Positions 36,351-52,174 of a DNA stretch of 64,000 nt are shown in pieces. Position 1 is the first letter of the stretch; each line of letters opens with the position of its first letter. The position numbers were made by a program, and so were the translations under genes. The notes beneath the pieces were generated by a model that saw only the letters and a list, made by a program, of their open reading frames with translations, did no database searches and had not been told where the DNA came from. Location: the IMG/VR virus record IMGVR_UViG_3300022920_000004, positions 35,001 through 99,000 of that record. One strand, 5' to 3'. Origin of the DNA: a virus.

Positions 36351-36393
36351 ATTAAGCCATACATATACACAATTTAAGTCTCTTTAAAAATAA

Positions 36394-36468: not shown

Positions 36469-36822
36469 ATGAAAATAATAATTGCAGGTTTAAGAAACTT
36501 TACTGATTATAACCTCCTAAAAACAACTATTAATAATTTACTAGATAAATCTAATATAACTATTACAGAAGTTGTAAGTGGTGGAGCTAATGGTGTTGAT
36601 AAACTTGGTGAACAATACGCTAACGAATATAACATACCTATTAGGAGATTTAATGCTGATTGGAATAAATATGGTAATGCTGCAGGACCTATTAGAAATA
36701 AACAAATGGCTGAGTATGCTGATAGATTAATAGCTTTCTGGGATAATAAGTCTAGAGGTACTGGAAGTATGATTAAATTAGCTAAAAACAATAAATTAAA
36801 AGTATATATTAAACAAATATAA
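36469..36822 (+). CDS. YspA-like SLOG family protein
   Basis: IIIAGLRNF.DY, VVSGGANGVD, ADWNKYGNAAGPIRN.QMA, AFWD..SRGT..MI. Confidence 0.85.
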   Translation: MKIIIAGLRNFTDYNLLKTTINNLLDKSNITITEVVSGGANGVDKLGEQYANEYNIPIRRFNADWNKYGNAAGPIRNKQMAEYADRLIAFWDNKSRGTGSMIKLAKNNKLKVYIKQI

Positions 36823-36824
36823 TT

Positions 36825-37217
36825 ATGAAAAATAAATATTACACACCAAGTATTGAAGAATTCTATGTAGGGTTTGAATGTGAGATATATGATGACGATG
36901 ATAAAACTTGGGATTTAGTATATGTTGATACACAACCAGGTCTTTGTAATATTACTGGGTTAGATTTAGATATTAGAGTCAAATACCTAGACAAATCTGA
37001 TATAGAGGATTTGGGGTTTACACATATAGGTGCTTTATGGTTTGAGAGTAAAGAACTTGATTGTAGAATTAGAAAATGGAAGGGTTTAGAGATTGATATC
37101 TACCACGATTGGAGTAGAAATGATGGTGAACACACTGATCATTATAAAGTCTTCAGAGGAACTATTAAAAACAAATCTGAATTAAAAATACTCTTAAAAC
37201 AACTTAATATAAAGTAA
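36825..37217 (+). CDS. Constant/variable family protein, copy 1
   Basis: YYTPSIEEFYVGFE / RVKYLDKSDIEDLGF / IKNKSELK..LKQLNI. Confidence 0.75.
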   Translation: MKNKYYTPSIEEFYVGFECEIYDDDDKTWDLVYVDTQPGLCNITGLDLDIRVKYLDKSDIEDLGFTHIGALWFESKELDCRIRKWKGLEIDIYHDWSRNDGEHTDHYKVFRGTIKNKSELKILLKQLNIK

Positions 37218-37222
37218 TACTA

Positions 37223-37248
37223 AACCCGTCTTAACAGATGGGTTTTTT
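37223..37248 (+). terminator. Intrinsic terminator
   Basis: AACCCGTC/GATGGGTT stem + T-run. Confidence 0.75.
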
Positions 37249-37275
37249 GTTGTAATAAAGTTAATTATAAAATAT

Positions 37276-37329
37276 TTTAAAAATAAATCACTTTTTACTT
37301 GCATATGTCAAATTTTTATTGTACCTTTG
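37276..37329 (+). promoter_or_regulatory. Bacteroidota sigma70-type promoter P2
   Basis: TTG(37299)-N20-TACCTTTG, matching the TAnnTTTG consensus. Confidence 0.8.
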
Positions 37330-37434
37330 CGGTGTTAATAACAAACACAACAAACATACAATGGCTTTCCATCAATTGGGGCTATGACGTTTCTGAAGGG
37401 GAAGGAGTATTTAAAAGAGGAGGGGAAACTCTTT

Positions 37435-37636
37435 AGCACCTAATAATAAAATATATAAATATGAAGGAAGAATTTAAATGGATTAATTATGATGAGTGGA
37501 AGTTTGAAAAGACTAGGGGTAGAAGTATTATATGGAAAGGTTTATCTAAAGAGACTTATCCTAAAGTAAAAGACGTTGTTGAACGTTATATTATAGGATG
37601 TGATCCTTATGATGAAGCACCTAATAAATAAAATAT
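37435..37636 (+). repeat. Direct repeat AGCACCTAATAA(A)TAAAATATA (37435-37455 and 37616-37636)
   Basis: Each copy lies just upstream of a mini-ORF start; core also at 36085 and inverted at 37830. Confidence 0.75.
37461..37631 (+). CDS. 56-aa mini-protein resembling the TerL nuclease active-site strand
   Basis: Manual translation ends ...ERYIIGCDPYDEAPNK; TerL has GRYIAGIDPIDAD. Confidence 0.6.
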   Translation: MKEEFKWINYDEWKFEKTRGRSIIWKGLSKETYPKVKDVVERYIIGCDPYDEAPNK

Positions 37637-37641
37637 AGATT

Positions 37642-37818
37642 ATGATAAAATTAATAAGTAACAAAGATCCTGAATTCTTTTTTAAGTATACAAACTCTTT
37701 AATGGATTTATATAATAAACAAAAACAAATGGATTTTACAGAAATGTTAAATAAATTTCCTATTAAAAATAGTAATGAAATTTATGAATGGAAAATAATG
37801 GGAAGATCTGCTAAATAA
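37642..37818 (+). CDS. 58-aa mini-protein resembling major capsid protein residues ~23-74
   Basis: MLNKFPIKNSNEIYEWKIMG vs MCP SLSLFPEKVLESSDDFVWKLVG. Confidence 0.6.
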   Translation: MIKLISNKDPEFFFKYTNSLMDLYNKQKQMDFTEMLNKFPIKNSNEIYEWKIMGRSAK

Positions 37819-37865
37819 CCCTTACTATTTTAGGTGCTTTATTAAAATAATTTAAAAATAAATAT

Positions 37866-38072
37866 ATGGATTACAACAGAGAAAGAATATTAGATGATTT
37901 AGTAAGAGAACGTGAGATGAAAGAACACTCTGAAAGATTTCAAGGGTACTTCTTACAACATAAATTAGGGTATATTACAGATGATCAATTAAACGATTGG
38001 TTATTAGGTAAGAGAGAATTTGGAGTAGTTGTTAGAGACCCTAAAAATGAAATACCTTTTAAAAAAATTTAA
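37866..38072 (+). CDS. Hypothetical protein
   Basis: 68-aa ORF. Confidence 0.55.
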   Translation: MDYNRERILDDLVREREMKEHSERFQGYFLQHKLGYITDDQLNDWLLGKREFGVVVRDPKNEIPFKKI

Positions 38073-38121
38073 AAATAAATGCTAAATAATTAGGATATGT
38101 CAAAAAAATGTTGTACCTTTG
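38068..38121 (+). promoter_or_regulatory. Bacteroidota sigma70-type promoter P3
   Basis: TAG(38091)-N20-TACCTTTG; shares ATATGTCAAA and upstream TTTAAAAATAAAT with P2. Confidence 0.7.
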
Positions 38122-38146
38122 TACAAGAATTAAATAATTAAAGTAT

Positions 38147-38434
38147 ATGACTAAAATAAACATAGAAGAAACTTATAATAGTATTAAAGAGGATATAAGT
38201 AAAGATTATAAAAAATTTATATTAGAATCTAAAACATTCTTAGATAAATATAGACAAAATAGGAAAGATGATGTATTCCTTGGATATGTTGAAGAACCTG
38301 GATCTGGTTATAGATATATTATTACTATTTATATTAGGGGCTTTAGATCAACTGAATCATTAACTTCTAATATTCATTTAGATGCTAATTATAAACAAGT
38401 AAGTGAGAATGTTAAAAGAAGATCAACTAAATAA
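38147..38434 (+). CDS. Hypothetical protein
   Basis: 95-aa ORF after P3. Confidence 0.55.
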   Translation: MTKINIEETYNSIKEDISKDYKKFILESKTFLDKYRQNRKDDVFLGYVEEPGSGYRYIITIYIRGFRSTESLTSNIHLDANYKQVSENVKRRSTK

Positions 38435-38451
38435 TTTTACATATTATAACG

Positions 38452-38727
38452 ATGAGTGGAATCAAGGAAATACTAACAAATAGAGTACATAAAATACATA
38501 ATAAAAGTCATAGAAGAATGATGACTAAGAATGGTGTATTAGATAAAGTAGATTTACAAATTAATAAAAGTTTTAGTATTATAGATGCTTTAGATGATTT
38601 AAATCACTTAGTTAAATACACTCAAGATTATCCAGTAGAGGATAGTTCTATTGTACATTTTGAAACTGACTTAGTGGTTATGAGTAGAGAGAATTATGAT
38701 GAACTTTTAAAATTAATAGATGGATAA
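38452..38727 (+). CDS. Hypothetical protein
   Basis: 91-aa ORF. Confidence 0.55.
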   Translation: MSGIKEILTNRVHKIHNKSHRRMMTKNGVLDKVDLQINKSFSIIDALDDLNHLVKYTQDYPVEDSSIVHFETDLVVMSRENYDELLKLIDG

Positions 38728-38905
38728 TAGGGATAAGAGTTTTTGTATACACAAAAGTGTATATAGATATCAATTAGAATTTGGAACTGTAGTATTTTTT
38801 GATAAAGAAGAAGGTCTTAATATAATGCAATTTGATATAAGAGATGGTGAAGATATTATAAAAAGTATTGATGAAATATTAAAATATGAAAAAGATAATA
38901 AATAA
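38720..38905 (+). CDS. Hypothetical protein
   Basis: 61-aa ORF, translationally coupled. Confidence 0.5.
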   Translation: MDNRDKSFCIHKSVYRYQLEFGTVVFFDKEEGLNIMQFDIRDGEDIIKSIDEILKYEKDNK

Positions 38906-39162
38906 TGGGATTAAATAGACAAGCTAAAAGGATTGAACGTAAGAAAGCATTAAAAGATGCTAAGTTTCATAAGAAAGAGTTTTACGCTAAGTTAAATGAG
39001 TTAGATTATATATCTAGCTTATTAGCTGTAGAAGGTGTTATACTTACTGAGGATAACATTGTAGAGGAAGTTGCTAAGGTATCTTCTATTACTTTAGGTG
39101 CTATGGAGAAGATGATATTAATTAATAAACAAAGTCAGTTAGATGAAAAAGATAACACTTAA
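38905..39162 (+). CDS. Hypothetical protein
   Basis: 85-aa ORF, TAATG coupling. Confidence 0.55.
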   Translation: MGLNRQAKRIERKKALKDAKFHKKEFYAKLNELDYISSLLAVEGVILTEDNIVEEVAKVSSITLGAMEKMILINKQSQLDEKDNT

Positions 39163-39433
39163 AAATGTTAAAAGCTTCATTAGAGGACATTATAATTTAT
39201 ACTTAGATAAACTAGGTATGTATCCTAGACATAAACAAGAACAAATCCTGTATAGAATATCTCTATGCAGTGATTGTGTTTCTAATAAAGGTTGTAAGTA
39301 TTGTGGTTGTGCTCCTAATAAAAAGGTTTATGATGATAAGTCTTGTAATGATGGTGAAAGGTTTCCTGATATGCTTAATGAAGTAGAATGGGATAAGTTT
39401 AAAATTGATAATAAAATAACTGTAGATGAATAA
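39143..39433 (+). CDS. Cys-rich Zn-binding protein
   Basis: CSDC...CKYCGC...SC. Confidence 0.65.
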   Translation: MKKITLKNVKSFIRGHYNLYLDKLGMYPRHKQEQILYRISLCSDCVSNKGCKYCGCAPNKKVYDDKSCNDGERFPDMLNEVEWDKFKIDNKITVDE

Positions 39434-39598
39434 CTACGTAGAAGACCATAATAAAGTATCTGAAGCTATAACTGCTGTAGAAGATATGACAACTATGTTA
39501 GAGGTGTTTATGGAGAATACTAATACTAATATACAGTTTGAACCATCTGTAAATAAAGTTGATGGTAAATGGAGATCTGAATTAAAAATATATAAATA

Positions 39599-39958
39599 AT
39601 GGAGAAATATTATACACCTGAAATTGAAGAGTTTCATGTTGGTTTTGAATATGAATATAATTACGAAGAAGGTATTACTAGGGTTTTAGGTACTAATGAT
39701 ACAGTAGATACTGAAGAGGTTAGAGTTAAATATTTAGATAAAGAAGATATAGAGAGTTTGGGGTTTAAGCTAGATAATGTACATAACGAGGTTAAATTTA
39801 ACTACTTAATGTTTCCTTATAGATTAGAGCATACACCTCATAACAACAGGTTAGATATCTATAAATGGGGTGACGAGTGCGATATGATAGGTTATATTAA
39901 CATCAAAAATAAATCAGAGTTAAAAAGATTATTAAAACAATTAAATATAATTGAATAA
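39599..39958 (+). CDS. Constant/variable family protein, copy 2
   Basis: YYTPEIEEFHVGFE / RVKYLDKEDIESLGF / IKNKSELKRLLKQLNI. Confidence 0.75.
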   Translation: MEKYYTPEIEEFHVGFEYEYNYEEGITRVLGTNDTVDTEEVRVKYLDKEDIESLGFKLDNVHNEVKFNYLMFPYRLEHTPHNNRLDIYKWGDECDMIGYINIKNKSELKRLLKQLNIIE

Positions 39959-40257
39959 TGGAAAGATTAGAATACCTTAACAAAGAATTAAAACATATAA
40001 CCTCAGTTAATAGAGGTGCTCCATTTCCATTATTTGATACGGAATATGTAGAATTAGTACAACAAGAAATAATTAATATAATGGATAAAATTAAAATAGA
40101 CTACGATGATGAACCTGTAGTATCTTGTAAACATTGTAAATCATTGTTTATTAAAGTAGATGAAGATGATAATAACTTATGTATGAAATGTGGTTCTATA
40201 AATGAAGTGATAGAACATAAAGATATATTTGATTACAAGAATAAATATAACAAATAA
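39958..40257 (+). CDS. Zn-ribbon protein
   Basis: YDDEPVVSCKHCKSL...CMKCGS. Confidence 0.65.
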   Translation: MERLEYLNKELKHITSVNRGAPFPLFDTEYVELVQQEIINIMDKIKIDYDDEPVVSCKHCKSLFIKVDEDDNNLCMKCGSINEVIEHKDIFDYKNKYNK

Positions 40258-40526
40258 TGAATAAGGTACAACAAAGTATTGTTCAGGATAATTATATTTC
40301 TAAACATCCTGAGTTATATAACATTATGAAACAACGATGTGAAGAGATGTTAAAAATTAAAACTATTGAATTCCATGATAAATTAGATGATAATAATTTA
40401 ACAGTTGTTGGAAGTGATAGTGGTAATATGTATTTTAAAACTGGTGTTGGAGAAATTACTAAAGAAGAATTTCTTAAAATAATGGAAGGAAAAACAATTG
40501 AATATGAAGAACGGGAAGATAGCTAA
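40257..40526 (+). CDS. Hypothetical protein
   Basis: 89-aa ORF, coupled. Confidence 0.55.
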   Translation: MNKVQQSIVQDNYISKHPELYNIMKQRCEEMLKIKTIEFHDKLDDNNLTVVGSDSGNMYFKTGVGEITKEEFLKIMEGKTIEYEEREDS

Positions 40527-40893
40527 TATTAATGTTAGTAGAAAGCGTTTATATTATAGGTGGTTAGAAATAACTAAACCTTTTCATAAACTAACTTCTC
40601 AACAACATAATATACTAAGCTTATTATTATACTATTTCTTTGAATATAGAAAGGATATAACTAATGATAAGTTATGTTGGAAGATGGTTTTTGATTACGA
40701 TACCAAGCAACTAATAAAGAAAGAACTTGGTATTAAAGACCCTAATCTACAGAATGTATTAACATCACTTAGAAAGAAAGGTGTAGTTATTGACAATGAG
40801 ATTGTATCTACTTATATACCAAATATAGAAGTTGATAGTAATAATTTTAAGATAATATTTAATTTTAATATTGTAGAAGATGGAAAGCAATAA
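40498..40893 (+). CDS. Winged-helix DNA-binding protein
   Basis: IKKELGIKDPNLQNVLTSLRKKGVVI HTH-wing pattern. Confidence 0.6.
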   Translation: MNMKNGKIANINVSRKRLYYRWLEITKPFHKLTSQQHNILSLLLYYFFEYRKDITNDKLCWKMVFDYDTKQLIKKELGIKDPNLQNVLTSLRKKGVVIDNEIVSTYIPNIEVDSNNFKIIFNFNIVEDGKQ

Positions 40894-41137
40894 AACTGTA
40901 ATAATAAAAAAATCTTTTAAAAGTAAACCTGATAGTTTAAGAGGGATACGTCCAGAAAATGCATTATTTCATATAGGAGACCCTGATATGGGAGAATTAA
41001 ATCATATTGAAGTTGAAGAGTTTAAAAAACTTTATGATGCTTGTAAACCTAAAAGTATTAATAATGTAGGTATAATAATAATAGGGACATCAGGAGAAAC
41101 CGATAATAATTTTAAAAATATTTTTTATGGAAAGTAA
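40880..41137 (+). CDS. 85-aa mini-protein resembling the TerL ATPase Walker-B/coupling segment
   Basis: PDSLRGIR...GIIIIGTSG...FKNIFY vs TerL PEKARGIR...GFMLAGGTGG...SEKLFY. Confidence 0.6.
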   Translation: MESNKTVIIKKSFKSKPDSLRGIRPENALFHIGDPDMGELNHIEVEEFKKLYDACKPKSINNVGIIIIGTSGETDNNFKNIFYGK

Positions 41138-41531
41138 ATACTATATACCAGATATATCTGAATTTTATGTTGGGTTTGAGTGTGAAGTTTATAATAAATA
41201 TTCAGAAGAATGGTATATTTTTTTATTTAACCAAGTTTTTGAAGACACATCTGTAGCGTATAATTTTACGGAAGGAAAATATAGAGTTAAATACTTAGAT
41301 AAATCTGATATAGAAAGTTTAGGGTTTAAACAAATAACTGATGACTGTTTTAATTTACCTTTAAATGATGATGAAGAACTTAGGTTATTGTATGAAGATA
41401 ATATTATAGTTATTTTCTTAGCTGACCAATATAACCGTAGTTTATTTAGGGGTTTAATTAAAAACAAATCTGAATTAAAGAAAGTTTTAAAACAATTAAA
41501 TATTGTAGATGAGGAAGAGAAGAAATCCTAA
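41127..41531 (+). CDS. Constant/variable family protein, copy 3
   Basis: YYIPDISEFYVGFE / RVKYLDKSDIESLGF / IKNKSELKKVLKQLNI. Confidence 0.75.
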   Translation: MESKYYIPDISEFYVGFECEVYNKYSEEWYIFLFNQVFEDTSVAYNFTEGKYRVKYLDKSDIESLGFKQITDDCFNLPLNDDEELRLLYEDNIIVIFLADQYNRSLFRGLIKNKSELKKVLKQLNIVDEEEKKS

Positions 41532-42148: not shown

Positions 42149-42460
42149 ATGAAGAAAACATTAAATAATACAACAGCTAATCAAGCTAAAGACCAAGTTT
42201 CTGATATTACATTTTGGGGTAATGGTGATACATTTAAATTAATAAGTAAAGCCTCTAGTAAAAAAGAAGGTTGGATGAAATCTACTAAAGCTATGGAAAT
42301 AGTTGGTGTAGGTTGTGTAGTTCAAGTTACAACTCAACAAGGTGATAATGTATCTGAAGCAGTTACATTTGTACCAGGAGTAAAAATAGAAGAGTCTTAT
42401 GACTCTTTAGATAATATAAATAAAATTGTAATAAGTAGAAGATTAATAGCATTTAGTTAA
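42149..42460 (+). CDS. Hypothetical protein
   Basis: 103 aa, beta-rich GWMKSTKAMEI.GVGCVVQVTTQQ. Confidence 0.65.
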   Translation: MKKTLNNTTANQAKDQVSDITFWGNGDTFKLISKASSKKEGWMKSTKAMEIVGVGCVVQVTTQQGDNVSEAVTFVPGVKIEESYDSLDNINKIVISRRLIAFS

Positions 42461-43018
42461 ATGAATCTATTTGAAATGAAAGATTGGGAACTCTCCATTG
42501 TTGAACAAGCATGGGGAATTCTCGCTTTTAAGAAGTTATTAACAAGAGATAAGTCTAAAGGTAAAACTAGGTCTCATTTAGAGATGCAGTTTATATGGCA
42601 TTATACAGATGTTAAATCTACTTATCAATATATAATTGACTTAGAAGTACGAACAGAAGAAATTAAGAAAGACATTGGATTACCTAAAACTTGGAAAATT
42701 GATAATGATGTGCAGGCTGCTATTGATCTTTATGAGGAACGTAGTAGTACTATTATAGAAGCTTTATATAAACAAACTTTAAAATCTGCATCTGCTATTG
42801 GTGAATATTTAGGTAGAACTAAAGAGTTGTTAGGTGAACGAGATGCTCAAGGTAAAATCATTACGGATATATCTAAGATTACTGGGGCTGTAAGTAAGAT
42901 GCCTAATTTAATGCGTGATTTAAAAGCAGCTTATAAGGAAGTTGTTATAGAGCAAGAGGAAGCTGATAGTAAAAAGAAAGGTGTAAGAACATTTAATACA
43001 TTTGAAGACGGTATATAA
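42461..43018 (+). CDS. Putative terminase small subunit
   Basis: RDKSK.K motif, helical, shortly upstream of TerL as in crAss-like phages. Confidence 0.55.
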   Translation: MNLFEMKDWELSIVEQAWGILAFKKLLTRDKSKGKTRSHLEMQFIWHYTDVKSTYQYIIDLEVRTEEIKKDIGLPKTWKIDNDVQAAIDLYEERSSTIIEALYKQTLKSASAIGEYLGRTKELLGERDAQGKIITDISKITGAVSKMPNLMRDLKAAYKEVVIEQEEADSKKKGVRTFNTFEDGI

Positions 43019-43019
43019 T

Positions 43020-43256
43020 ATGGAAGAAAATAATAGAGGAACGGGTAGAACTACTAGGTTAGTTCAATTTTATATAGATAAGTTATTTACAACAACTGAT
43101 GAGGTTATAATTTATGATCATTATGACCATAAAATAGCTCATAAGTTTTTAACTGATGCTATAATTAGACGTATGCATAATGAAATACTTCTTAGAAGAA
43201 AAGATCTTATTTTAAAAAGAATTAATTCAAATATATTACAATTAACAAAAATATAA
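43020..43256 (+). CDS. Small protein with N-terminal P-loop-like motif
   Basis: RGTGRTTRL; start set to ATG 43020. Confidence 0.55.
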   Translation: MEENNRGTGRTTRLVQFYIDKLFTTTDEVIIYDHYDHKIAHKFLTDAIIRRMHNEILLRRKDLILKRINSNILQLTKI

Positions 43257-44722
43257 TGGAAGAAATTATATCAAATAAAGAAGTATTAACTAAATTACTA
43301 GGTGGTATAGATAAACTAGCTAATACAGTTAAAGTAACTTTAGGACCGAGTGGTAATACAGTTATTATAGCTGATGAATATGGTAAACCTTATGCTACTA
43401 AAGATGGTGTATCAGTATCTAACTATATTAATCTTAAAGACCCTGTAGAAAATATAGGTGTTACAATGATTAAAGAAGTAGCTAAGAAGACTGCTGATGA
43501 AGCTGGTGATGGTACTACAACAAGTATTGTATTAGCTCAAGCACTTATAACTAACGGTATTAAGTTTTTAAACGATGGTGGTACTTATAATGATATTAAA
43601 GAAATTTATTCTACATTATTACCAAAAGTATTAAATCTCATTAAAGATGCCTCTACTACAATTACTGCTGATGATATTGTAGATGTAGCTACTGTATCTG
43701 CTAATAATGATCGTGAAATAGGAGAATTAATACAAGTAGCATTTAATCATTCCACAGTAGTTAAAGTTGAAGAAGGTAAAGCTATTAAAGATAGTTTAGA
43801 GTTAATAACAGGTGTAACATATCCTGTAACATACTTTAGTAAGAAGTTTATAACTAATGAAGCTAAAAATACTGCTGAGATTAATGATGCTGCTGTATTA
43901 TTACTTGGTTGTAAGTTAGATAAATTAGATAACTTAAAGAAAGTATTAACTTATTGTAATAAAGAAGAAAAACCACTATTAATAATAACAGAGTTTATTA
44001 GTGATGATGCTTTACATATGCTGGAGACTAATCATATTAATAATGCTTTAAAAATACTGGCAGTTAAAACACCTGGTTACGCTAACTATAGAAATGAGTA
44101 TATAAAAGATTTAAGTGATCTTACTGATAGTATTATTATAGATGATCTTTCTAAAATGGTTGAAGTAGAGCGATTAGGTAGAATTAAAAGTGTAACAGCT
44201 AAATCTAATGAAACGGTATTAATTCCATATGATGATATTGATATTGAGCAAAGAATTACCAACCTCTTTACATTAAGTAAACAACCTAATTTAGGAGGTT
44301 ATGATAAAAAGATTTTATTAGAAAGAATTGATAATCTTAATGGAAAAGTATCTATTATTAAAGTAGGTGCTAAGTCTGAGATTGAAATGAAAGAACGTTA
44401 TGATAGAATTGAAGATGCTGTGTATGCAGTATCATCAGCACTAGAAGAAGGTGTCTTAGAGGGTGGTGGAGTAGCTTTATATAAGATTGCAGACACTTTA
44501 GATATTGACAGTAGTAAATCACTACATTTAATATTACAAGCTCTTAGAGCTCCTAATAAGACTATTAATGAAAATGGTGCTAAAGTTAATCCTTTTATAT
44601 TTGATGATTACACAGTAGTTGATCCTACTAAAGTAACTAGATGTGCTTTAGAAAATGCAGCATCTGTAGCATTAACTATATTAGGAACTAAAGCAGTTGT
44701 ATTAAATGAACATTTATGGTAG
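43256..44722 (+). CDS. groEL: GroEL-like chaperonin
   Basis: TLGPSG, TKDGVSV, AGDGTTT, IKVGA.SEIEMKE..DRIEDA, EEG..GGG, VDPTKVTR.ALENA.S. Confidence 0.95.
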   Translation: MEEIISNKEVLTKLLGGIDKLANTVKVTLGPSGNTVIIADEYGKPYATKDGVSVSNYINLKDPVENIGVTMIKEVAKKTADEAGDGTTTSIVLAQALITNGIKFLNDGGTYNDIKEIYSTLLPKVLNLIKDASTTITADDIVDVATVSANNDREIGELIQVAFNHSTVVKVEEGKAIKDSLELITGVTYPVTYFSKKFITNEAKNTAEINDAAVLLLGCKLDKLDNLKKVLTYCNKEEKPLLIITEFISDDALHMLETNHINNALKILAVKTPGYANYRNEYIKDLSDLTDSIIIDDLSKMVEVERLGRIKSVTAKSNETVLIPYDDIDIEQRITNLFTLSKQPNLGGYDKKILLERIDNLNGKVSIIKVGAKSEIEMKERYDRIEDAVYAVSSALEEGVLEGGGVALYKIADTLDIDSSKSLHLILQALRAPNKTINENGAKVNPFIFDDYTVVDPTKVTRCALENAASVALTILGTKAVVLNEHLW

Positions 44723-46977
44723 ATTTATTAAGTTTAAAGTTAAACAAATATCAAACACCTATAACACAAGAATTAAAAGATTCTTTACATAAGGAAGTAT
44801 GGAATGATTTAGAAGAATATATTTCTACAGTATCATTTATAGAACATATGATATCAGATGAAACTGTTCGTGGTTATGCTAGAGATAAACCTCGTAATAG
44901 TAATGGTCGTATAACTGTAGACTTAACTAAACCTCATATATTAGAAGATATAGATTTTTTTAGAGAGAAAGCTTTATTCTTTGAAAAAAATGGTAAATAT
45001 ACTAATATACCTGTTAATTCAAACCCTAAATCAGAATATGCTGCTTTTTGGAAACAAGAGTTGTATAGATGGGAACATGGTTTAACTAGGGAATCTGATG
45101 GTGAATGGATACCAGGAGAATTATATTTTTACTGGAACTATAGTCCTATATGGTTAGTTAAAGAAGATAAAACTAATAGTAGTGATAATAAAAAGAGTAA
45201 AGGTAAGCGGGTTAGAGAATTTCCTAAACCTTGGTCTGGAGACTATTTATTTCATCATTATATAGAGCAAGCTAAAACTAATGGTAAACATGGTAAACTA
45301 TTAAAATGTAGGGGAATTGGGTTTAGTTTTAAATGTGCTTCTTGGAGCCCAAGAAATATGTATATATACCCAGGTTCAGGTAATCCTAACTTTCATTTAG
45401 CTTCAGAGAAATCCTTTTTGCAAGGAGATAAAGGAATTTTTGGTAAAGTAATGGATTGTTTAGATTGGATAGCTGATAATACACCTTTTGCTAAACTTAG
45501 ACTTACAGATAGTAAGAAAGGGATGGAAATTCAGTTAGGTTATTTAGATGATTATGGTGTACGTAGAGGATTATTATCATCTGTATTTGGTATATCATTA
45601 AAAGATAATCCTGAAAAAGCAAGGGGTATTCGTGGACCTTTAATTCATTATGAAGAAGACGGTTTATTTCCTAACTTAGAAACAGCTTGGAACGTAAATA
45701 GAAAGGCTGTTGAGGATGGAGATGTATCATTTGGATTTATGCTTGCTGGTGGAACTGGAGGAACTGAAGGGGCTTCATTTGAAGGATCTGAAAAGTTATT
45801 CTATAAAGCTGATGCATATAATATATATTCCATACCTAATGCGTTTGATAAGAATGTTAAAGGTGTTACAAACTGTGGTTACTTTTGGGGTGCTTATATA
45901 AATCGTAATAAATGTTATGATGAATCTGTTGGAGAATCTGATGTTGTAAAAGCGTTAATAGAAATATTACAAGATAGATTTTTAGTAAAATATAATTCAT
46001 CAGATCCAAAAGCTATTACACAAAAGAAAGCTGAAGAATGTATAACACCTCAAGAAGCTGTATTAAGAGTTGATGGTACTATATTCCCTGTAGCTGATTT
46101 GAAGGATTATTTAGAAGATATATTTCCACGCAAAGAATCTTTCTTAGCCGAACATTATGTAGGTGATTTAACATATAAAAATGATGGTGGGGTTAAATGG
46201 ACTCCTAATCCAAGTTTATATCCAATTAGATCATATTCTAATGTACCAGCTAATAAACGAGGTGCTGTAGAGATATTTGAAATGCCTAAAAAGAATGGTA
46301 GGGGAGAAATAGCTAGTGGTAGATATATTGCAGGTATTGACCCTATTGATGCTGATACAGGTAACTCATTATTCTCAATGTTAGTAATGGATACATTTAC
46401 TGATAGAATAGTTGCTGAATATACTGGAAGACCTAGAACTGCTAAAGATGCTTATGAAATAACATTAAAGTTATTAATATTTTATAATGCTCAAGCTAAC
46501 TATGAGAACAACTTAAAAGGTTTATTTAGTTATTTTGACAATAAGAATGCACTTTATTTATTAAGTGATACTCCTCAAATCATTCGTGATATGGAGTTAA
46601 CTAAAGCAACTAATGTATATGGAAATAAAGCAAAAGGAACTAACGCAAACGCTAGATTAAACAGTTGGGCTAGATTATTACAAGTAGATTGGTTATTAGC
46701 CAAAGTAAGTAAAGAAGAAGGAGCTGATGATAAGCGACTAAATATACATAGATTAAGATCTATTGGTTATATTGAAGAGCTAATATATTGGAATCCTGAT
46801 GGTAACTTTGATAGGGTATCTGCAGCAGGTATGTTATTTATACTAAGAGAAGATAGACTAAAACGTACTGTAACAGCTAAAGATAATCAATATAAAAAGG
46901 TTAATACTTTAGCTAATGATCCTTATTTTAATAAGAATTATAAAGGTGGTATGGGTTTAGATAAATTAATAAAGTAA
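44716..46977 (+). CDS. terL: Terminase large subunit
   Basis: YFYWNY, KCRGIGFS, HYEEDG Walker B, GGTGG, GIDPID, NYENN, GNFDRVSA. Confidence 0.93.
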   Translation: MVDLLSLKLNKYQTPITQELKDSLHKEVWNDLEEYISTVSFIEHMISDETVRGYARDKPRNSNGRITVDLTKPHILEDIDFFREKALFFEKNGKYTNIPVNSNPKSEYAAFWKQELYRWEHGLTRESDGEWIPGELYFYWNYSPIWLVKEDKTNSSDNKKSKGKRVREFPKPWSGDYLFHHYIEQAKTNGKHGKLLKCRGIGFSFKCASWSPRNMYIYPGSGNPNFHLASEKSFLQGDKGIFGKVMDCLDWIADNTPFAKLRLTDSKKGMEIQLGYLDDYGVRRGLLSSVFGISLKDNPEKARGIRGPLIHYEEDGLFPNLETAWNVNRKAVEDGDVSFGFMLAGGTGGTEGASFEGSEKLFYKADAYNIYSIPNAFDKNVKGVTNCGYFWGAYINRNKCYDESVGESDVVKALIEILQDRFLVKYNSSDPKAITQKKAEECITPQEAVLRVDGTIFPVADLKDYLEDIFPRKESFLAEHYVGDLTYKNDGGVKWTPNPSLYPIRSYSNVPANKRGAVEIFEMPKKNGRGEIASGRYIAGIDPIDADTGNSLFSMLVMDTFTDRIVAEYTGRPRTAKDAYEITLKLLIFYNAQANYENNLKGLFSYFDNKNALYLLSDTPQIIRDMELTKATNVYGNKAKGTNANARLNSWARLLQVDWLLAKVSKEEGADDKRLNIHRLRSIGYIEELIYWNPDGNFDRVSAAGMLFILREDRLKRTVTAKDNQYKKVNTLANDPYFNKNYKGGMGLDKLIK

Positions 46978-47055: not shown

Positions 47056-49437
47056 ATGGGAACATTTCAGAATGTAAAAACACCGCCTCAACGTCTTAGT
47101 TTTTCTAAGAAGGGAAAAGAGTGGAGAAAAAATAATGTAGATCACGGAGATGTTAATTCTTTATATCATAATGAAGGGGTTAGACAATCTTTAAGAAATA
47201 GAGTAATAAATCTTAATTTATATAATGGTATTATAAATGTCAATGATATGAAAGAAGTAGTTAATCCTTATGGGATTGATGCCGATTTTATACCTAAAGC
47301 AATACCACATCATCCTATTGCAGTACCTAAGATAGACTTATTAGTAGGTGAAGAGATTAAACGTAGATTTGATTGGTCTGTTGTAGTAACTAATCCTAAT
47401 GCCATAACAGCTAAAGAAAATGATAGAAAGAATGTTTTAACTCAAAAGATTACGCAATTTATACAAGGTAATTACTCAGAACAAGAACTTGAAATGAAAA
47501 TGAAAGATCTTGAGAAGTATATGAAGTATGAGTGGCAAGATGTTAGAGAAAAGATGGCTAATCAAATTCTTAAACATTATTGGGAAGAACAACAGTTTGC
47601 TTATAAATTTAATAATGGATTTAAAGATGCTATGATAATGGCAGAAGAAATCTATCAAGTAGATATAGTTGCTGATGAACCTGTGCTTGAAAAGCTTAAC
47701 CCATTAAAGGTAAGGGCTGTGCGTAATGGTAACTCTAATAGAATTGAAGACTCTAGTATAATTGTTATAGAAGATCATTGGTCTCCTGCTAAAATAGTGG
47801 ATACTTTTTATGGTGAAATAAAGCCTAAAGAGATTGATGTTATTATGGAATATGGAGGTAGATCTTCTAAAGGAGGTTATAGTGATGACGATAATAACCA
47901 TGTTCTATTACGTGATTCAGTTGAAGACTTTTTAGGGATTGCTGAAATTAATGGTCATAACTTTAGTAGAGATTATACAGATCCTGATGGTAATATTAGA
48001 GTATTAAGAGTTTACTGGAGAAGTTATAAAAAAATTAAGAAAGTTAAGTTCTATGATGAGGAAGGTGAAACTCAGTTTAAATTTATGTCTGAGGAATATA
48101 TTCCTAACAAAGATTTAGGCGAAGAAGTTACTGATTTATGGGTTAATGAAATATGGGAAGGTACTAAAATAGGTAAGGATATTTATATTCAAATGAGACC
48201 TAAAGAAGTTCAATTTAACAGATTGAATAATAAATCTCAATGTCATGCTGGAATTATTGGACAAGTGTATAACACTAACCAAGGTAAAGGTATTTCATTA
48301 ATGGATAGATGTAAAAACTATCAATATTTATATGATGCTATATGGGATAGATTAAACAAAGCTATTGCTACTAACTATGGTAAGATATTTGAATTAGATA
48401 TATCTAAAATACCTGATAACTGGGAAGTTGAAAAATGGATGCACTTTGCTATTGTTAATAAGATAGCTATTGTAGATAGTTTTAAAGAAGGAAATCATGG
48501 TGCTTCTACAGGTAAATTAGCTGGATCGTTTAATACTCAAGGTGGTAGATCTATTGACATGGAATCTGGTAATTATATTCAACAACAAATCCAACTCTTA
48601 GAGTTTATTAAGATGGAGATGGGTGAAATTGTAGGTGTATCACAACAACGTCAAGGACAAATATCTAATAGAGAAACTGTAGGTGGTGTTGAAAGAGCTG
48701 TTAATCAATCAAGTCATATTACTGAACATTGGTTTATGCAACATGAGAATGTTAAGTTAAGAGTATTAACTGCATTTTTAGAAACTGCTAAAATAGCCCT
48801 TAAAGGTAAAAATCCTAAAGTACAGTATATATTAGATGATCAAACTATACAAACTTTAAATGTTGATGGTGATGTATTCTGTGAAGCTGATTATGGTGTT
48901 GTAGCAACTAACTCTAGTAAGACACAAGAAATGGAGCAAACTATAAAAGGTTATGCACAATCTTTCTTACAGAATGGTGGTAATTTATCTACTATAATGG
49001 ATATTTATTTTAGCCCTTCATTAGCTGATATGAGACGTAAGATTGAAATTGCTGAAGATGATTTACATCAAAAGAATTCAGAAGCTTCTCAACAACAAGC
49101 TAAACTTGCTGAACAACAACAAGCTCAAGAATTACAACTTGAACAAGCTAAAATGAAACTTGAAGAAACTATTAATATTAGAGATAATGAAACTAAGTTA
49201 CAAATAGCTCAAATGTCACAAGATGGTTTAGATACGGATTTAAATAATGATGGTGATGGTTTAGATGCTGAAAAACTTAATTTAGAAGAAAGAAAGTTTC
49301 AAAATGATAGAACTAATTCAAGTAATGACCTAATGGTTAAAATAAAATCTTTACATAACGATATGGAGAAACACAGTGATAATGTAAAGTTAAAGGAAAA
49401 ACAACTTAAAAAGGCAGCTAATAAGCCGTCTAAATAA
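47056..49437 (+). CDS. Portal protein
   Basis: 793 aa after TerL; PKIDLLVGEE, W.NE.WEGTKIG, QRQGQI...ETVGGVERAV.QS typical of crAss-like portals. Confidence 0.9.
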   Translation: MGTFQNVKTPPQRLSFSKKGKEWRKNNVDHGDVNSLYHNEGVRQSLRNRVINLNLYNGIINVNDMKEVVNPYGIDADFIPKAIPHHPIAVPKIDLLVGEEIKRRFDWSVVVTNPNAITAKENDRKNVLTQKITQFIQGNYSEQELEMKMKDLEKYMKYEWQDVREKMANQILKHYWEEQQFAYKFNNGFKDAMIMAEEIYQVDIVADEPVLEKLNPLKVRAVRNGNSNRIEDSSIIVIEDHWSPAKIVDTFYGEIKPKEIDVIMEYGGRSSKGGYSDDDNNHVLLRDSVEDFLGIAEINGHNFSRDYTDPDGNIRVLRVYWRSYKKIKKVKFYDEEGETQFKFMSEEYIPNKDLGEEVTDLWVNEIWEGTKIGKDIYIQMRPKEVQFNRLNNKSQCHAGIIGQVYNTNQGKGISLMDRCKNYQYLYDAIWDRLNKAIATNYGKIFELDISKIPDNWEVEKWMHFAIVNKIAIVDSFKEGNHGASTGKLAGSFNTQGGRSIDMESGNYIQQQIQLLEFIKMEMGEIVGVSQQRQGQISNRETVGGVERAVNQSSHITEHWFMQHENVKLRVLTAFLETAKIALKGKNPKVQYILDDQTIQTLNVDGDVFCEADYGVVATNSSKTQEMEQTIKGYAQSFLQNGGNLSTIMDIYFSPSLADMRRKIEIAEDDLHQKNSEASQQQAKLAEQQQAQELQLEQAKMKLEETINIRDNETKLQIAQMSQDGLDTDLNNDGDGLDAEKLNLEERKFQNDRTNSSNDLMVKIKSLHNDMEKHSDNVKLKEKQLKKAANKPSK

Positions 49438-50668: not shown

Positions 50669-52174
50669 ATGAGTGTAGGTAAATTCGTTGTCACAAAGGG
50701 TAAACACTGGTCGGGGCTAACATTAAAAAACCATATTGGGGCTATTTTTGGAAGTAGACCGCAGTTGGCATCAAAGGTAACTACTGTATTACTTCAATCC
50801 GCAGGAATGAAAAATTTAGATACTTCGTTATCTTTATTTCCTGAGAAAGTATTAGAATCAAGCGATGATTTCGTTTGGAAGTTAGTTGGAAGTGATGAAA
50901 GAAATATTCCATTAACTGAAGCACGTTATAACGGAGCTGTTGTTACTGATGGTGACACAGGAATTGGAGCAGGTAGAACAACATTTGAACTAGTATTCGC
51001 TGAAAAGTGGTTTACTAAAGTTCATGTAATTTCTGGTATTCATCCAGATATCTATCAAATTAGAATTTTAGAAGAGCCTGTTGCAGAAGCTCCTAATAGA
51101 TATGTGTACACATGTGAAGCATGGGGTGGACAAGAATCATTAGCGGGTATTCCTGGTTCTGAATTAGTAGCAAACAATAGATTCTCTATTGAATCTGCTT
51201 ATGTTGAAGACGAACTTTCTATTGAAGGTGCTGGAATTCAATTTACATCTCCTTACTTAATGAGAAATAGTGTTTCTAACTTACGTTTTGAACATAAAGT
51301 TTCTGGAGCAATGATTGATTGTAAAGTTGAACCAGTTTATTTTGCAGGTATTGAGACAAGAGATCCTAATAGCGGTAAAGTACATTCATCTAATACATGG
51401 ATGCAAGAAGTACACTGGCAGTTTGAAAAAGCATTATCTAGAATTAAATCTAGAACATTGATGTTTGGTAAAACAAATCGTGCTGAAAATGGTGGATTCT
51501 TAAACAAAGGAAAATCAAATATTGAAATTAAAGCAGGTTCTGGAATTAGAGAGCAAATTGAAGTAAGTAATACTACTTATTACAATAGATTCTCAATTAG
51601 ATTACTAGAAGATATGCTTTATGAGTTATCTGAAGGTAAACTAGATTTCTCAGAACGTAAATTTATGTTGCGTACAGGAGAAAGAGGTGCAGCACAATTT
51701 CACAGAGCTGTAACTGCTGAAGCATCAGGATGGATTAACTTAACACAAAATAACCCTGCTGTAACGCAAAAGGTTAGTTCTAAGTTTCATTCAAATGCAT
51801 TTAAAACTGGATTCCAATTCACTGAATGGACAGCACCTAATAATGTAAGTGTATCTATCGAGGTTGATCCTATGTATGATGACAAAGTAAGAAATAAGTT
51901 ATTGCATCCAGATGGAGGTGTAGCTGAATCTTACAGATATGATATTTTATATATCGGATCTAGCGATGAACCAAATATCCAAAAGATTAAAGTTCGTGGT
52001 GAAGATGAATTAAGAGGTTATAAAGCTGGTATTAGAGATCCGTTTACGGGTCGTAGAGGTGGAGTTATGAATCATATGGAAGATTCTGCTGTTATTACAG
52101 CAATGTGCATGACTGGAGCGATGGTAAAAGATCCTTCTAGAACTGCAACATTAATCCCTTCAATATTAGGATAG
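50669..52174 (+). CDS. Major capsid protein
   Basis: 501 aa, GLT..NH N-terminus, G.GIREQI, TGERG, followed by strong terminator; crAss-like synteny. Confidence 0.9.
   Translation: MSVGKFVVTKGKHWSGLTLKNHIGAIFGSRPQLASKVTTVLLQSAGMKNLDTSLSLFPEKVLESSDDFVWKLVGSDERNIPLTEARYNGAVVTDGDTGIGAGRTTFELVFAEKWFTKVHVISGIHPDIYQIRILEEPVAEAPNRYVYTCEAWGGQESLAGIPGSELVANNRFSIESAYVEDELSIEGAGIQFTSPYLMRNSVSNLRFEHKVSGAMIDCKVEPVYFAGIETRDPNSGKVHSSNTWMQEVHWQFEKALSRIKSRTLMFGKTNRAENGGFLNKGKSNIEIKAGSGIREQIEVSNTTYYNRFSIRLLEDMLYELSEGKLDFSERKFMLRTGERGAAQFHRAVTAEASGWINLTQNNPAVTQKVSSKFHSNAFKTGFQFTEWTAPNNVSVSIEVDPMYDDKVRNKLLHPDGGVAESYRYDILYIGSSDEPNIQKIKVRGEDELRGYKAGIRDPFTGRRGGVMNHMEDSAVITAMCMTGAMVKDPSRTATLIPSILG

What the first reader, a model, noticed from the sequence alone, without database searches (positions are those of the whole stretch)
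37435..41137. Candidate decoy/mimic system: mini-genes copying fragments of the phage's own terminase and capsid protein
Seen: at least three 56-85 aa ORFs (37461, 37642, 40880) each align by eye to a different short motif-bearing segment of TerL or MCP encoded in this window. They are strongly diverged, so they do not look like recent duplications. They have normal starts and stops and lie downstream of host-type promoters P2/P3, upstream of the real genes. Established: terminase, portal and capsid proteins are triggers for bacterial sensors (Avs/STAND NTPases recognise TerL including active-site residues; CapRel and others sense MCP). Inference: these peptides may be non-activating decoys for such sensors. 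Alternatives are dominant-negative inhibitors of competing phages or assembly regulators. I know of no description of such a set.
Basis: partly seen in the sequence, partly recalled or inferred. Interest (0 to 1): 0.88.

Follow-up and report, generated by a model that had tools for sequence, protein, structure and literature searches.

The report
Terminase- and capsid-piece mini-genes in phage
A marine crAss-like phage carries small, strain-variable genes, at least one and probably two of which are real diverged pieces of a DNA-packaging enzyme (a third may be a piece of capsid protein); this gives the idea of phage "mimic" proteins a concrete test case, but their function is untested.

Summary
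The three ORFs (37461-37631, 37642-37818, 40880-41137) are real. My first tests (Pfam, PHROGs, BLAST, narrow family HMMs) put their likeness to TerL and MCP at chance level. Two later steps reversed that.

- **ORF 40880:** an exhaustive search found five distant homologs. A profile of those five alone, without the window's ORF, matches a diverse crAss-type TerL profile at residues 288-366, from just before the Walker B strand to motif III (hhalign probability 79-88%, P 2e-5 to 3e-7). With the window ORF included, probability is 91-95%.
- **ORF 37461:** it matches the first nuclease catalytic strand, TerL 534-548 (P 6e-5). This is the best of 393 small ORFs scanned.
- **ORF 37642:** it aligns end to end with MCP 22-81. 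This is suggestive only (P about 1e-3).

The pieces are closer to the TerL and MCP of other phages than to this phage's own. Each is a single-gene cassette downstream of host-RNAP middle promoters. All three are absent from a sister strain with 95-99% identical flanks, and cassette 40880 is also precisely absent from three other seawater metagenomes.

Related phages carry MCP-like and portal-like mini-ORFs in the same variable region, and this scan has noted similar genes in other phages. The decoy function is untested.

The parts
40880..41137 (+). 85-aa mini-gene. Member of a small family of stand-alone proteins homologous to TerL ATPase residues 288-366. No Walker A; the Walker B acidic pair EE is replaced by GD; the GT-x-G motif III strand is kept.
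   Evidence: Homologs P0007-P0011. hhalign vs diverse TerL profile: probability 91-95%, 79-88% without the window ORF. Controls P>=0.02.
37461..37631 (+). 56-aa mini-gene. Residues 39-53 match the first catalytic strand of the TerL nuclease (R-Y-I-x-G-x-D-P-x-D). The ORF ends 4 residues later.
   Evidence: hhalign P 6.4e-5, probability 64%, 0 of 150 shuffles reach it. Best of 164 window ORFs. Only a 96% identical variant is known.
37642..37818 (+). 58-aa mini-gene that aligns over its whole length with the N-terminal region of MCP (residues 22-81). Relationship not established.
   Evidence: hhalign local P 1.2e-3; whole-length score 22.5 vs shuffles mean 4.6, max 12.4. Pairwise semi-global alignment reached by 2 of 1000 shuffles. 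No homologs found.
45577..45813 (+). TerL codons 288-366: conserved R-G-I-R-G stretch, Walker B strand (I-H-Y-E-E-D), helix, motif III strand (G-T-G-G). This is the segment the 40880 family matches.
   Evidence: TerL called by phrog_6681, E 4.6e-105.
46315..46359 (+). TerL codons 534-548: first nuclease catalytic strand, matched by ORF 37461.
50732..50911 (+). MCP codons 22-81, the stretch aligned with ORF 37642.
   Evidence: MCP called by PF23898, E 1.4e-176.
37222..37329 (+). Intrinsic terminator (37222-37245) followed by middle promoter P2 (37253-37329), which heads the variable unit 37461 / 37642 / 37866.
   Evidence: paper 10.1101/2020.03.07.982082.
38045..38121 (+). Middle promoter P3. 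ORF 40880 lies 2.8 kb downstream in the same gene string.
37433..37455 (+). Left copy of the 21-22 nt repeat G-C-A-C-C-T-A-A-T-A-A-(T)-A-A-A-A-T-A-T-A that flanks the ORF-56 cassette. The right copy is at 37619-37640 and encodes the ORF's last residues.
41127..41137 (+). Right copy of the 11-nt repeat A-T-G-G-A-A-A-G-Y-A-A (left copy 40880-40890). The 247-nt cassette sits behind a duplicate of the next gene's start.
   Evidence: The exact 247-nt skip 40879->41127 occurs in three DNA metagenomes.

Best explanation
**What they are.** These are accessory mini-genes made from pieces of packaging and capsid genes.

**Shown:**
- The window is a marine crAss-like phage related to Cellulophaga phage phi14:2.
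- Upstream of TerL it has a conserved string of small genes interleaved with slots that hold different single-gene cassettes in different strains.
- ORF 40880 belongs to a small family of stand-alone proteins homologous to the core of the TerL ATPase. It spans the strand carrying Walker B, the following helix and the motif III strand. It lacks Walker A and the acidic Walker B pair, so it cannot hydrolyse ATP.
- ORF 37461 carries a segment matching the first catalytic strand of the TerL nuclease, and nothing that aligns with later parts of the domain.
- Both score higher against the TerL of distant phages than against the phage's own TerL.

**Probable:** ORF 37642 derives from the N-terminal region of a capsid protein.

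**Inferred origin.** Pieces of foreign phage genes were inserted at gene boundaries by recombination at very short homologies, directly behind a duplicated start of the resident gene. They are therefore translated in their native frame and transcribed by host RNAP from middle promoters.

**Inferred function.** At least the 40880 family is kept as an inactive mimic that occupies a partner which normally grips TerL. That partner could be a host immune sensor or the packaging machinery of a competing phage. I cannot say which.
For: **Homology**
- 40880 family vs TerL, P 1e-6 to 1e-8. It is independent of the window ORF and of the phage's own TerL.
- 16 control gene families and 5 other cassette ORFs give P>=0.02.
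- ORF 37461. ORF 37642.
- the three ORFs are the top hits among 164 small ORFs of the window.

**The 40880 family looks functional rather than accidental**
- The three members that reach the C-terminal F-Y motif stop within two residues of it. Two members carry extra C-terminal domains, one of them KTSC.

**Foreign origin**
- Best pairwise scores are to cr55_1, Fpv3 and Fpv1 rather than to the own genes.

**Cassette nature**
- All three are absent from sister strain L060, whose flanks are 95-99% identical.
- Joints that skip exactly the 40880 cassette occur in three DNA metagenomes from 2016, 2018 and 2024.
- The identical genotype recurs in a 2025 RNA-library run.
- Four of five window-only inserts begin with a copy of the next gene's start.

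**Recurrence**
- L011 84 aa, in the same slot as 40880: MCP 392-433, P 2e-5.
- L057 105 aa: MCP 312-400. L055 48 aa: MCP 324-351. L043 62 aa: portal 424-453.
- By my count, 7 ORFs reach P<=1.3e-3 where about 1.5 are expected from 393 ORFs x 3 profiles.

**Promoters:**
Against: - Standard tools saw nothing: Pfam and PHROGs at E<=1, a PDB profile search, and tblastn against 50,697 phage genomes.
- The signal appears only with a hand-built diverse crAss-type TerL profile. With the narrow profile it was P 0.02-0.045.
- The 37461 match is 15 residues long. A low-confidence AF2 model (pLDDT 64) puts a helix where TerL should, from general knowledge of the fold, have a strand.
- 37642 would not survive correction for 164 ORFs on its local score.
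- 37461 and 37642 have no diverged relatives, so no selection test was possible.
- One comparable cassette ORF shows relaxed constraint (dN/dS 0.72).
- The Atlas model of 40880 has pLDDT 0.40.
- The genomic context of the 40880 homologs is unknown.
Confidence: 0.45

Rival explanations
1. Functionless captured scraps. Recombination between co-infecting phages drops random pieces of foreign genes into the tolerant slots. In this AT-rich DNA only the native frame of a piece stays open, so it reads as a mini-gene until it is deleted.
For: - The cassettes are dispensable and polymorphic in nature.
- 37461 and 37642 are confined to one genotype.
- Inserts sit behind duplicated resident starts.
- Cassette ORF 43002 vs L001 has dN/dS 0.72.
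- The pieces are closer to foreign genes than to own genes.
Against: - The 40880 family persists at 42-55% identity across unrelated metagenomes. Three members end at the same place, and two carry added domains.
- Cassette ORF 42149 vs L070 has dN/dS 0.32.
- Hits fall on conserved motif-bearing segments of TerL, MCP and portal. Other large genes were not scanned, so this point is weak.
Confidence: 0.3
2. Immune decoys. The peptides bind host sensors that recognise TerL or MCP without activating them.
For: - Sensors that grip TerL exist. Upx is modelled to bind unfolded core strands of the TerL ATPase by beta-augmentation (PMC13601566).
- 40880 consists of two such core strands and is not predicted to fold confidently on its own.
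- DSAD1 is a precedent for an inhibitor that occupies a trigger pocket (PMC10973363).
- The sister strain carries an anti-restriction-type methyltransferase in the same slot.
Against: - No sensor, host or binding was tested.
- The one described stand-alone TerL-like phage protein, T4 vs.8, activates Avs2 rather than blocking it.
- The host and its defence systems are unknown.
Confidence: 0.2
3. Interference with packaging or assembly. Dead pieces join or cap the TerL ring, portal or capsid lattice of a co-infecting competitor, or tune the phage's own assembly.
For: - The pieces resemble foreign TerL and MCP (cr55_1, Fpv-type) more than the own proteins.
- The matched TerL stretch includes a conserved R-G-I-R-G element just before Walker B. 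From general knowledge of TerL rings, this could be an inter-subunit arginine finger.
Against: Half of an ATPase core is unlikely to fold or dock alone. No competitor phage is identified.
Confidence: 0.12
4. Chance resemblance of ordinary orphan genes. This was my own reading up.
For: - In-window BLASTP gave E 0.6-2.9.
- Narrow-profile HMM scores were 1-6 bits, matched by real small ORFs of relatives.
- Other cassette ORFs get equal tblastn scores elsewhere in the genome.
Against: -: the signal grows with profile diversity, holds without the window ORF, and exceeds 229+164 real-ORF controls by 1-3 orders of magnitude.
- For 37642 alone, chance remains about even odds.
Confidence: 0.05
5. Relics of intron, intein or homing-endonuclease traffic that dragged flanking exon pieces of TerL and MCP to new sites.
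For: - crAss-like TerL and MCP genes do host such elements. cr111_1 TerL has an in-frame insert of about 340 aa, and cr128_1 MCP is split by a gene.
- L060 has an endonuclease VII gene in the P2 slot.
Against: The two mapped insertion points (TerL about 212-229, MCP about 293-297) are far from the fragment borders at TerL 288-366, TerL 534-548 and MCP 22-81.
Confidence: 0.05

Closest known systems
Phage T4 vs.8, a stand-alone TerL-ATPase-like protein (Evans et al. 2026, PMC13601566)
   Same: It is a separate phage gene homologous to the TerL ATPase and encoded outside the packaging module. It is predicted to sit in a terminase sensor's pocket.
   Different: vs.8 is a whole ATPase domain with Walker A and Walker B, and it activates EcAvs2. 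ORF 40880 covers only about 80 residues (Walker B strand to motif III), has no Walker A, and has a changed Walker B. It is of crAss type, not T4 type.
DSAD1 of SPbeta-like phages, inhibitor of DSR2 (PMC10973363)
   Same: It is a phage protein that occupies the pocket where a virion protein (the tail tube) would trigger the sensor. This is the mechanism the decoy reading proposes.
   Different: DSAD1's action is shown by structures. Here no sensor or binding is known, and here the likeness is sequence homology to the trigger itself.
Hyperplastic regions with PeSL cassettes in T4-type phages (Arbiol et al. 2010, PMC2839356)
   Same: Near-identical phages differ by insertion, deletion or replacement of small genes without known homologs, in regions rich in repeated promoter and terminator cassettes. 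Here a terminator plus the repeated middle promoter bound the P2 slot.
   Different: Here most single-gene inserts are bounded by 4-20 nt repeats that duplicate the next gene's start rather than by whole promoter cassettes. The cargo also includes pieces of virion and packaging genes.
Middle promoters of Cellulophaga phage phi14:2 (bioRxiv 10.1101/2020.03.07.982082)
   Same: The 76-nt element at 36371, 37253 and 38045 aligns with the regions upstream of g108 and g110, in the same position upstream of TerL.
   Different: Transcription was not measured for this phage.

Membership tests
TerL ATPase domain (ASCE P-loop packaging ATPase), for ORF 40880 | Profile-level homology to TerL ATPase | tested here: met
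   hhalign probability 91-95%, P 1e-6 to 1e-8, 70-73 columns. Probability 79-88% without the window ORF, and 95% against 8 GenBank TerLs alone.
TerL ATPase domain (ASCE P-loop packaging ATPase), for ORF 40880 | Walker A (P-loop) | tested here: not met
   The family aligns only to TerL 288-366. Nothing corresponds to the earlier part of the domain.
TerL ATPase domain (ASCE P-loop packaging ATPase), for ORF 40880 | Walker B: hydrophobic strand ending in an acidic pair | tested here: not met
   TerL I-H-Y-E-E aligns with F-H-I-G-D. The family consensus is G-D-P-D-M-G.
TerL ATPase domain (ASCE P-loop packaging ATPase), for ORF 40880 | Motif III strand (G-T-G-G in crAss-type TerL) | tested here: met
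   G-T-x-G is invariant in all six family members and is aligned to TerL G-T-G-G.
TerL nuclease domain (RNase H-like), for ORF 37461 | First catalytic strand with the conserved Asp | tested here: met
   Residues 39-53 align with TerL 534-548 and the D-P-x-D is kept; P 6.4e-5.
TerL nuclease domain (RNase H-like), for ORF 37461 | Rest of the fold with the further catalytic acidic residues | tested here: not met
   The ORF ends 4 residues after the motif.
Crassvirus major capsid protein (PF23898), for ORF 37642 | Match to the family profile | tested here: inconclusive
   No Pfam hit at E<=1. hhalign local P 1.2e-3, whole-length P 2.8e-4, probability 18-19%.
T4 vs.8-like stand-alone TerL ATPase | Complete ATPase domain with Walker A and Walker B | tested here: not met
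   See the rows above. Definition from PMC13601566.
Hyperplastic-region cassette (T4 PeSL type) | Insertions, deletions or replacements of small genes between near-identical phages, next to repeated promoter/terminator units | tested here: met
   Window vs L060. Natural joints. Repeat family D1 and the terminator.
Anti-defence decoy (trigger mimic) | Binds the sensor's trigger pocket and blocks activation | not testable with these tools

The most novel reading that the evidence does not exclude
Marine crAss-like phages, and by this scan's other notes several unrelated phage groups, maintain a class of accessory mini-genes built from short pieces of TerL, MCP and portal. These would act as sponges for host sensors that recognise those proteins. 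ORF 40880 would present the unfolded ATPase core strands that Upx-type sensors are modelled to grip. ORF 37461 would present the nuclease active-site strand that Avs-type sensors are reported to contact.
Probability: 0.2. Interest if true: 0.9.

Novelty: new variant of a known kind. Interest (0 to 1): 0.63.

Why it matters
Bacterial sensors that detect terminase, portal and capsid proteins are well described. Phage answers to them are mostly unknown. Small, catalytically dead pieces of exactly these proteins, encoded as separate strain-variable genes downstream of host-type promoters, would be a simple and general way to blunt such sensors or to sabotage rival phages.

This locus offers clean material for testing that idea:
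- a family-level TerL piece with defined borders;
- a natural isogenic pair, with and without the cassette;
- a cultured relative, phi14:2 on Cellulophaga baltica.

There is also a methodological point. Routine annotation, and my own first 80 calls, filed these as orphan genes. They became visible only with a diverse profile of the parent protein.

Tried and rejected
**Led nowhere for the TerL/MCP link**
- Pfam and PHROGs scans of the peptides.
- In-window BLASTP.
- Narrow family HMMs, with calibration against real ORFs. This led me to call the likeness chance.
- hhalign against narrow profiles.
- PDB profile search.
- tblastn of 40880 and P0008 against phage genomes.
- DNA-level comparison with the own TerL and MCP genes and with the whole 99-kb genome.

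**No relatives or context found**
- Word-index protein searches returned only self, or a 96% variant.
- IMG/VR, metagenome and genome scans found nothing.
The genomic context of P0002 and P0007-P0011, and any dN/dS on them, could therefore not be obtained.

**False leads**
- P0005 and P0006 are repeat-protein artefacts.
- P0013, listed in P0009's cluster, is an unrelated methylase.
- L081 and L084-L086 are spurious matches.

**Structure**
- The ESM Atlas model of 40880 has pLDDT 0.40 and no feature hits.
- The AF2 model of 37461 has pLDDT 64.
- Complex prediction of TerL 85-470 with the 40880 family returned no verdict.

**Other**
- The 130-nt leader downstream of P2 has no significant fold (z -1.2) and no Rfam match.
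- The sigma-70 promoter scan was at shuffle level.
- The two 247-nt cassettes, 40257 and 40880, share no sequence.
- RNA-library run X2 holds 38113-41269 as a contig. Contigs cannot show transcription, and it does not cover 37461 or 37642.
- Paper searches for terminase decoys or capsid-fragment inhibitors found nothing on point.

Full report
**What the window is.** The window is bases 35001-99000 of a 99-kb IMG/VR virus record with about 27% G+C. It encodes the following, all on the + strand:
- a crAss-type major capsid protein, 50669-52174 (PF23898, E 1.4e-176);
- a large terminase, 44716-46977 (phrog_6681, E 4.6e-105);
- a portal, 47056-49437;
- a GroEL-like gene, 43256-44722.

The nearest cultured relative is Cellulophaga phage phi14:2, with 67% MCP identity. 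The DNA recurs in seawater metagenomes.

**The ORFs and their setting.** ORFs 37461-37631 (56 aa), 37642-37818 (58 aa) and 40880-41137 (85 aa) exist as described. They lie in a tight + strand string of small genes between a divergent region near 36 kb and TerL.

I compared 36 loci that have at least 7.5 kb upstream of TerL. This showed a conserved backbone:
- 38147, 38905, 39143, 39958, 40498, 41509, 41784, 42461 and GroEL are present in 35-36 of 36 loci.
- Between them are slots that hold lineage-specific genes.
- The three ORFs and five further window ORFs (37866, 38720, 40257, 42149, 43002) are such slot cargo.

Locus L060 shares 99% TerL identity and 95-99% identical flanks, yet it lacks all three ORFs. 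In place of 37461, 37642 and 37866 it carries a DNA methyltransferase (phrog_757, E 2.7e-23) and an endonuclease VII gene (PF02945, E 4.7e-26).

Logan contigs of three DNA metagenomes (2016, 2018, 2024) contain joints that skip exactly 40880-41126 and exactly 40257-40503. One or two of them also skip 39595-39953 and 38720-38904. A 2025 RNA-library run holds a 3157-nt contig identical to 38113-41269 with both cassettes. The cassettes are therefore natural presence/absence polymorphisms.

Each cassette is filled by one + strand frame; shuffles reach that length in 0-30 of 5000 trials.

Four of the five window-only inserts begin with a copy of the first 4-20 nt of the downstream gene. For 40880 this is A-T-G-G-A-A-A-G-Y-A-A. 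ORF 37461 is flanked by a 21-22 nt repeat of the end of the leader.

**Promoters.** A 76-nt element occurs at 36371, 37253 and 38045. It aligns with the regions upstream of phi14:2 genes g108 and g110. Middle promoters used by host RNAP were mapped there by primer extension (bioRxiv 10.1101/2020.03.07.982082). An intrinsic terminator at 37222-37245 precedes P2. Transcription in this phage was not measured.

**First round on the likeness: negative.**
- Pfam and PHROGs gave no TerL or MCP hit at E<=1.
- In-window BLASTP gave 10-13 residue matches at E 0.6-2.9.
- HMMs built from 79 TerL, 43 MCP and 61 portal relatives ranked 37461 and 37642 second behind the true genes, but at only 6 bits.
- Real small ORFs from 78 related loci reached 6.1 bits at a rate that predicts 0.57 such hits per window.
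- hhalign against these narrow profiles gave probabilities of 40%, 5% and 7%.
- There is no DNA similarity to the own genes.
- Word-index searches found only self, or a 96% variant.

At this point I regarded the likeness as chance.

**Reversal for ORF 40880.** An exhaustive phmmer search of 1.84 billion representatives found five true homologs, P0007-P0011 (42-55% identity, 51-158 aa). It also returned two repeat-protein artefacts. The family shares four motifs: G-D-P-D-M-G-x-L-N, K/R-P-K, G-T-x-G, and, in the three members that reach it, a C-terminal F-Y followed by at most two residues and the stop. Two members carry extra C-terminal domains.

Against the narrow TerL profile the family scored only P 0.02-0.045 locally.

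I then widened the TerL profile with eight GenBank TerLs: crAss001, cr108_1, cr55_1, Azobacteroides phage, Fpv3, cr110_1, Carjivirus and a Leptolyngbya phage. Results:

| Comparison | Probability | P |
|---|---|---|
| Family vs wide TerL profile, local | 91% | 1e-6 |
| Family vs wide TerL profile, whole-length | 95% | 1e-8 |
| Five homologs only, no window ORF | 79-88% | 1.7e-5 to 3.3e-7 |
| P0007 alone | 67% | 5.4e-5 |
| Family vs profile without the phage's own TerL | 91% | 9e-7 |
| Family vs the eight GenBank TerLs alone | 95% | 2.7e-8 |

The main comparison aligns family columns 1-80 to TerL 288-366 over 70-73 columns. Its score is 48, against a mean of 13.6 and a maximum of 21 for permuted columns. 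Sixteen control gene families and five other cassette ORFs gave P>=0.02.

In the alignment:
- the stretch K-x-x-P-D-x-x-R-G lies on TerL K-D-N-P-D-K-A-R-G;
- F-H-I-G-D lies on the Walker B strand I-H-Y-E-E;
- the helix with the conserved Trp is matched;
- G-T-S-G lies on G-T-G-G;
- F-Y lies on F-Y.

There is no Walker A.

**ORFs 37461 and 37642 with wider profiles.**
- 37461 scores P 6.4e-5 (probability 64%) for residues 39-53 on TerL 534-548. No shuffle of 150 reaches it. A looser alignment extends the match over residues 9-56.
- 37642 was tested against an MCP profile widened with five GenBank MCPs. It scores P 1.2e-3 locally. In whole-length mode all 58 residues align on MCP 22-81 with a score of 22.5, against a shuffle mean of 4.6 and maximum of 12.4.
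- Among all 164 small ORFs of the window, 37461 and 40880 rank first and second against TerL and 37642 first against MCP. The next best are P 0.008 for TerL and 0.014 for MCP.

**Recurrence in relatives.** I scanned 229 variable ORFs from 35 related loci.
- No TerL-like ORF appeared (best P 0.0065). This also serves as a real-protein null.
- Three MCP-like ORFs appeared: L011 5259-5513, in the same slot as 40880, on MCP 392-433 with the D-P-x-Y-D and E-S-Y-R motifs (P 2e-5); L057 2630-2947 on MCP 312-400 (P 4.8e-4; 34-36 identities over about 98 residues pairwise); and L055 2997-3143 on MCP 324-351 (P 9e-4).
- One portal-like ORF appeared: L043 2403-2591 (P 2.5e-4).
- By my count, seven ORFs reach P<=1.3e-3 where about 1.5 are expected.

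This scan's earlier reports describe comparable mini-genes in other phages, including another marine crAss-like phage. Those are unchecked leads.

**Own or foreign?** The pieces score higher against foreign proteins than against the phage's own:

| ORF | Best foreign match | Own protein |
|---|---|---|
| 40880 | cr55_1 TerL, 24 of 69 identical, score 64 (Fpv3 next) | score 38 |
| 37461 | cr55_1 TerL, 17 of 34 identical | 7 of 10 identical |
| L011 and L055 pieces | Fpv1 MCP | lower |

They are therefore not copies of this phage's own genes.

**Test of the mobile-element idea.** The in-frame insert in cr111_1 TerL maps to residues 212-229. The gene that splits cr128_1 MCP maps to residues 293-297. 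Neither lies at a fragment border.

**Function.** Nothing measured here bears directly on function. The literature offers three reference points:
- T4 vs.8 is a complete stand-alone TerL-like ATPase that activates Avs2 (PMC13601566).
- Upx is modelled to bind unfolded core strands of the TerL ATPase (PMC13601566).
- DSAD1 occupies the pocket of the tail-tube sensor DSR2 (PMC10973363).

My best reading is that these are captured pieces of foreign packaging and capsid genes, and that the 40880 family at least is kept as an inactive mimic. Neutral debris is the main rival. Immune decoy and competitor interference remain untested sub-hypotheses.

**Limits.**
- No confident structure was obtained.
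- The hhalign profiles were hand-built. The portal profile was narrow, and other large genes were not scanned.

Noticed in passing
window 36825-37217, 39599-39958, 41127-41531: A three-copy paralog family is present in 14 of 36 related loci, in different slots, and in phi14:2 as g104. Three near-invariant motifs (K-Y-Y-x-P-x-x-E-F, R-V-K-Y-L-D-x-x-D-I-E, I-K-N-K-S-E-L-K) are separated by hypervariable segments of variable length. The motifs are also 77-87% identical at DNA level between copies. Copy 2 is precisely absent in two metagenomes. AF2 pLDDT is 75. The best PDB match is Z 5.7 to type III secretion chaperones, which is inconclusive.
   Followed up: partly
window 38720-38905, 40257-40526, 42149-42460, 43002-43256: Four further window-only single-gene cassettes are absent from the 95-99% identical strain L060. 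Three begin with a duplicate of the next gene's start. None resembles TerL, MCP or portal. Cassettes 40257 and 40880 are both exactly 247 nt long but share no sequence.
   Followed up: yes
L060:2940-4054: In the slot where the window has ORFs 37461, 37642 and 37866, the sister strain carries a DNA methyltransferase and an endonuclease VII gene with its own copy of the middle promoter.
   Followed up: partly
L011:5259-5513; L057:2630-2947; L055:2997-3143; L043:2403-2591: Variable mini-ORFs of related phages match segments of MCP (392-433, 312-400, 324-351) and of portal (424-453) above the real-ORF background.
   Followed up: partly
window 36469-36822: A strain-specific 117-aa SLOG-family gene (PF10686 YAcAr, E 3.4e-16) lies at the head of the region. 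It has DNA-level relatives in Bacillus, Cellulophaga and Limnohabitans phages.
   Followed up: no
L103 (cr111_1) and L104 (cr128_1): cr111_1 TerL is one 1099-aa frame with an insert of about 340 aa near the Walker A region, which is intein-like. cr128_1 MCP is split at about residue 295 by a 213-aa gene, which looks like an intron with an endonuclease.
   Followed up: partly
protein P0011 (homolog of ORF 40880): This family member carries I-A-G-C-D-P just before its G-T-S-G strand. On its own its best TerL match is the nuclease motif at 534-547, the same motif that ORF 37461 carries. This may be coincidence.
   Followed up: no
window 37330-37460: A 130-nt leader with higher G+C lies between promoter P2 and ORF 37461 and is 86% conserved in L060. 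It has no significant fold and no Rfam match.
   Followed up: yes
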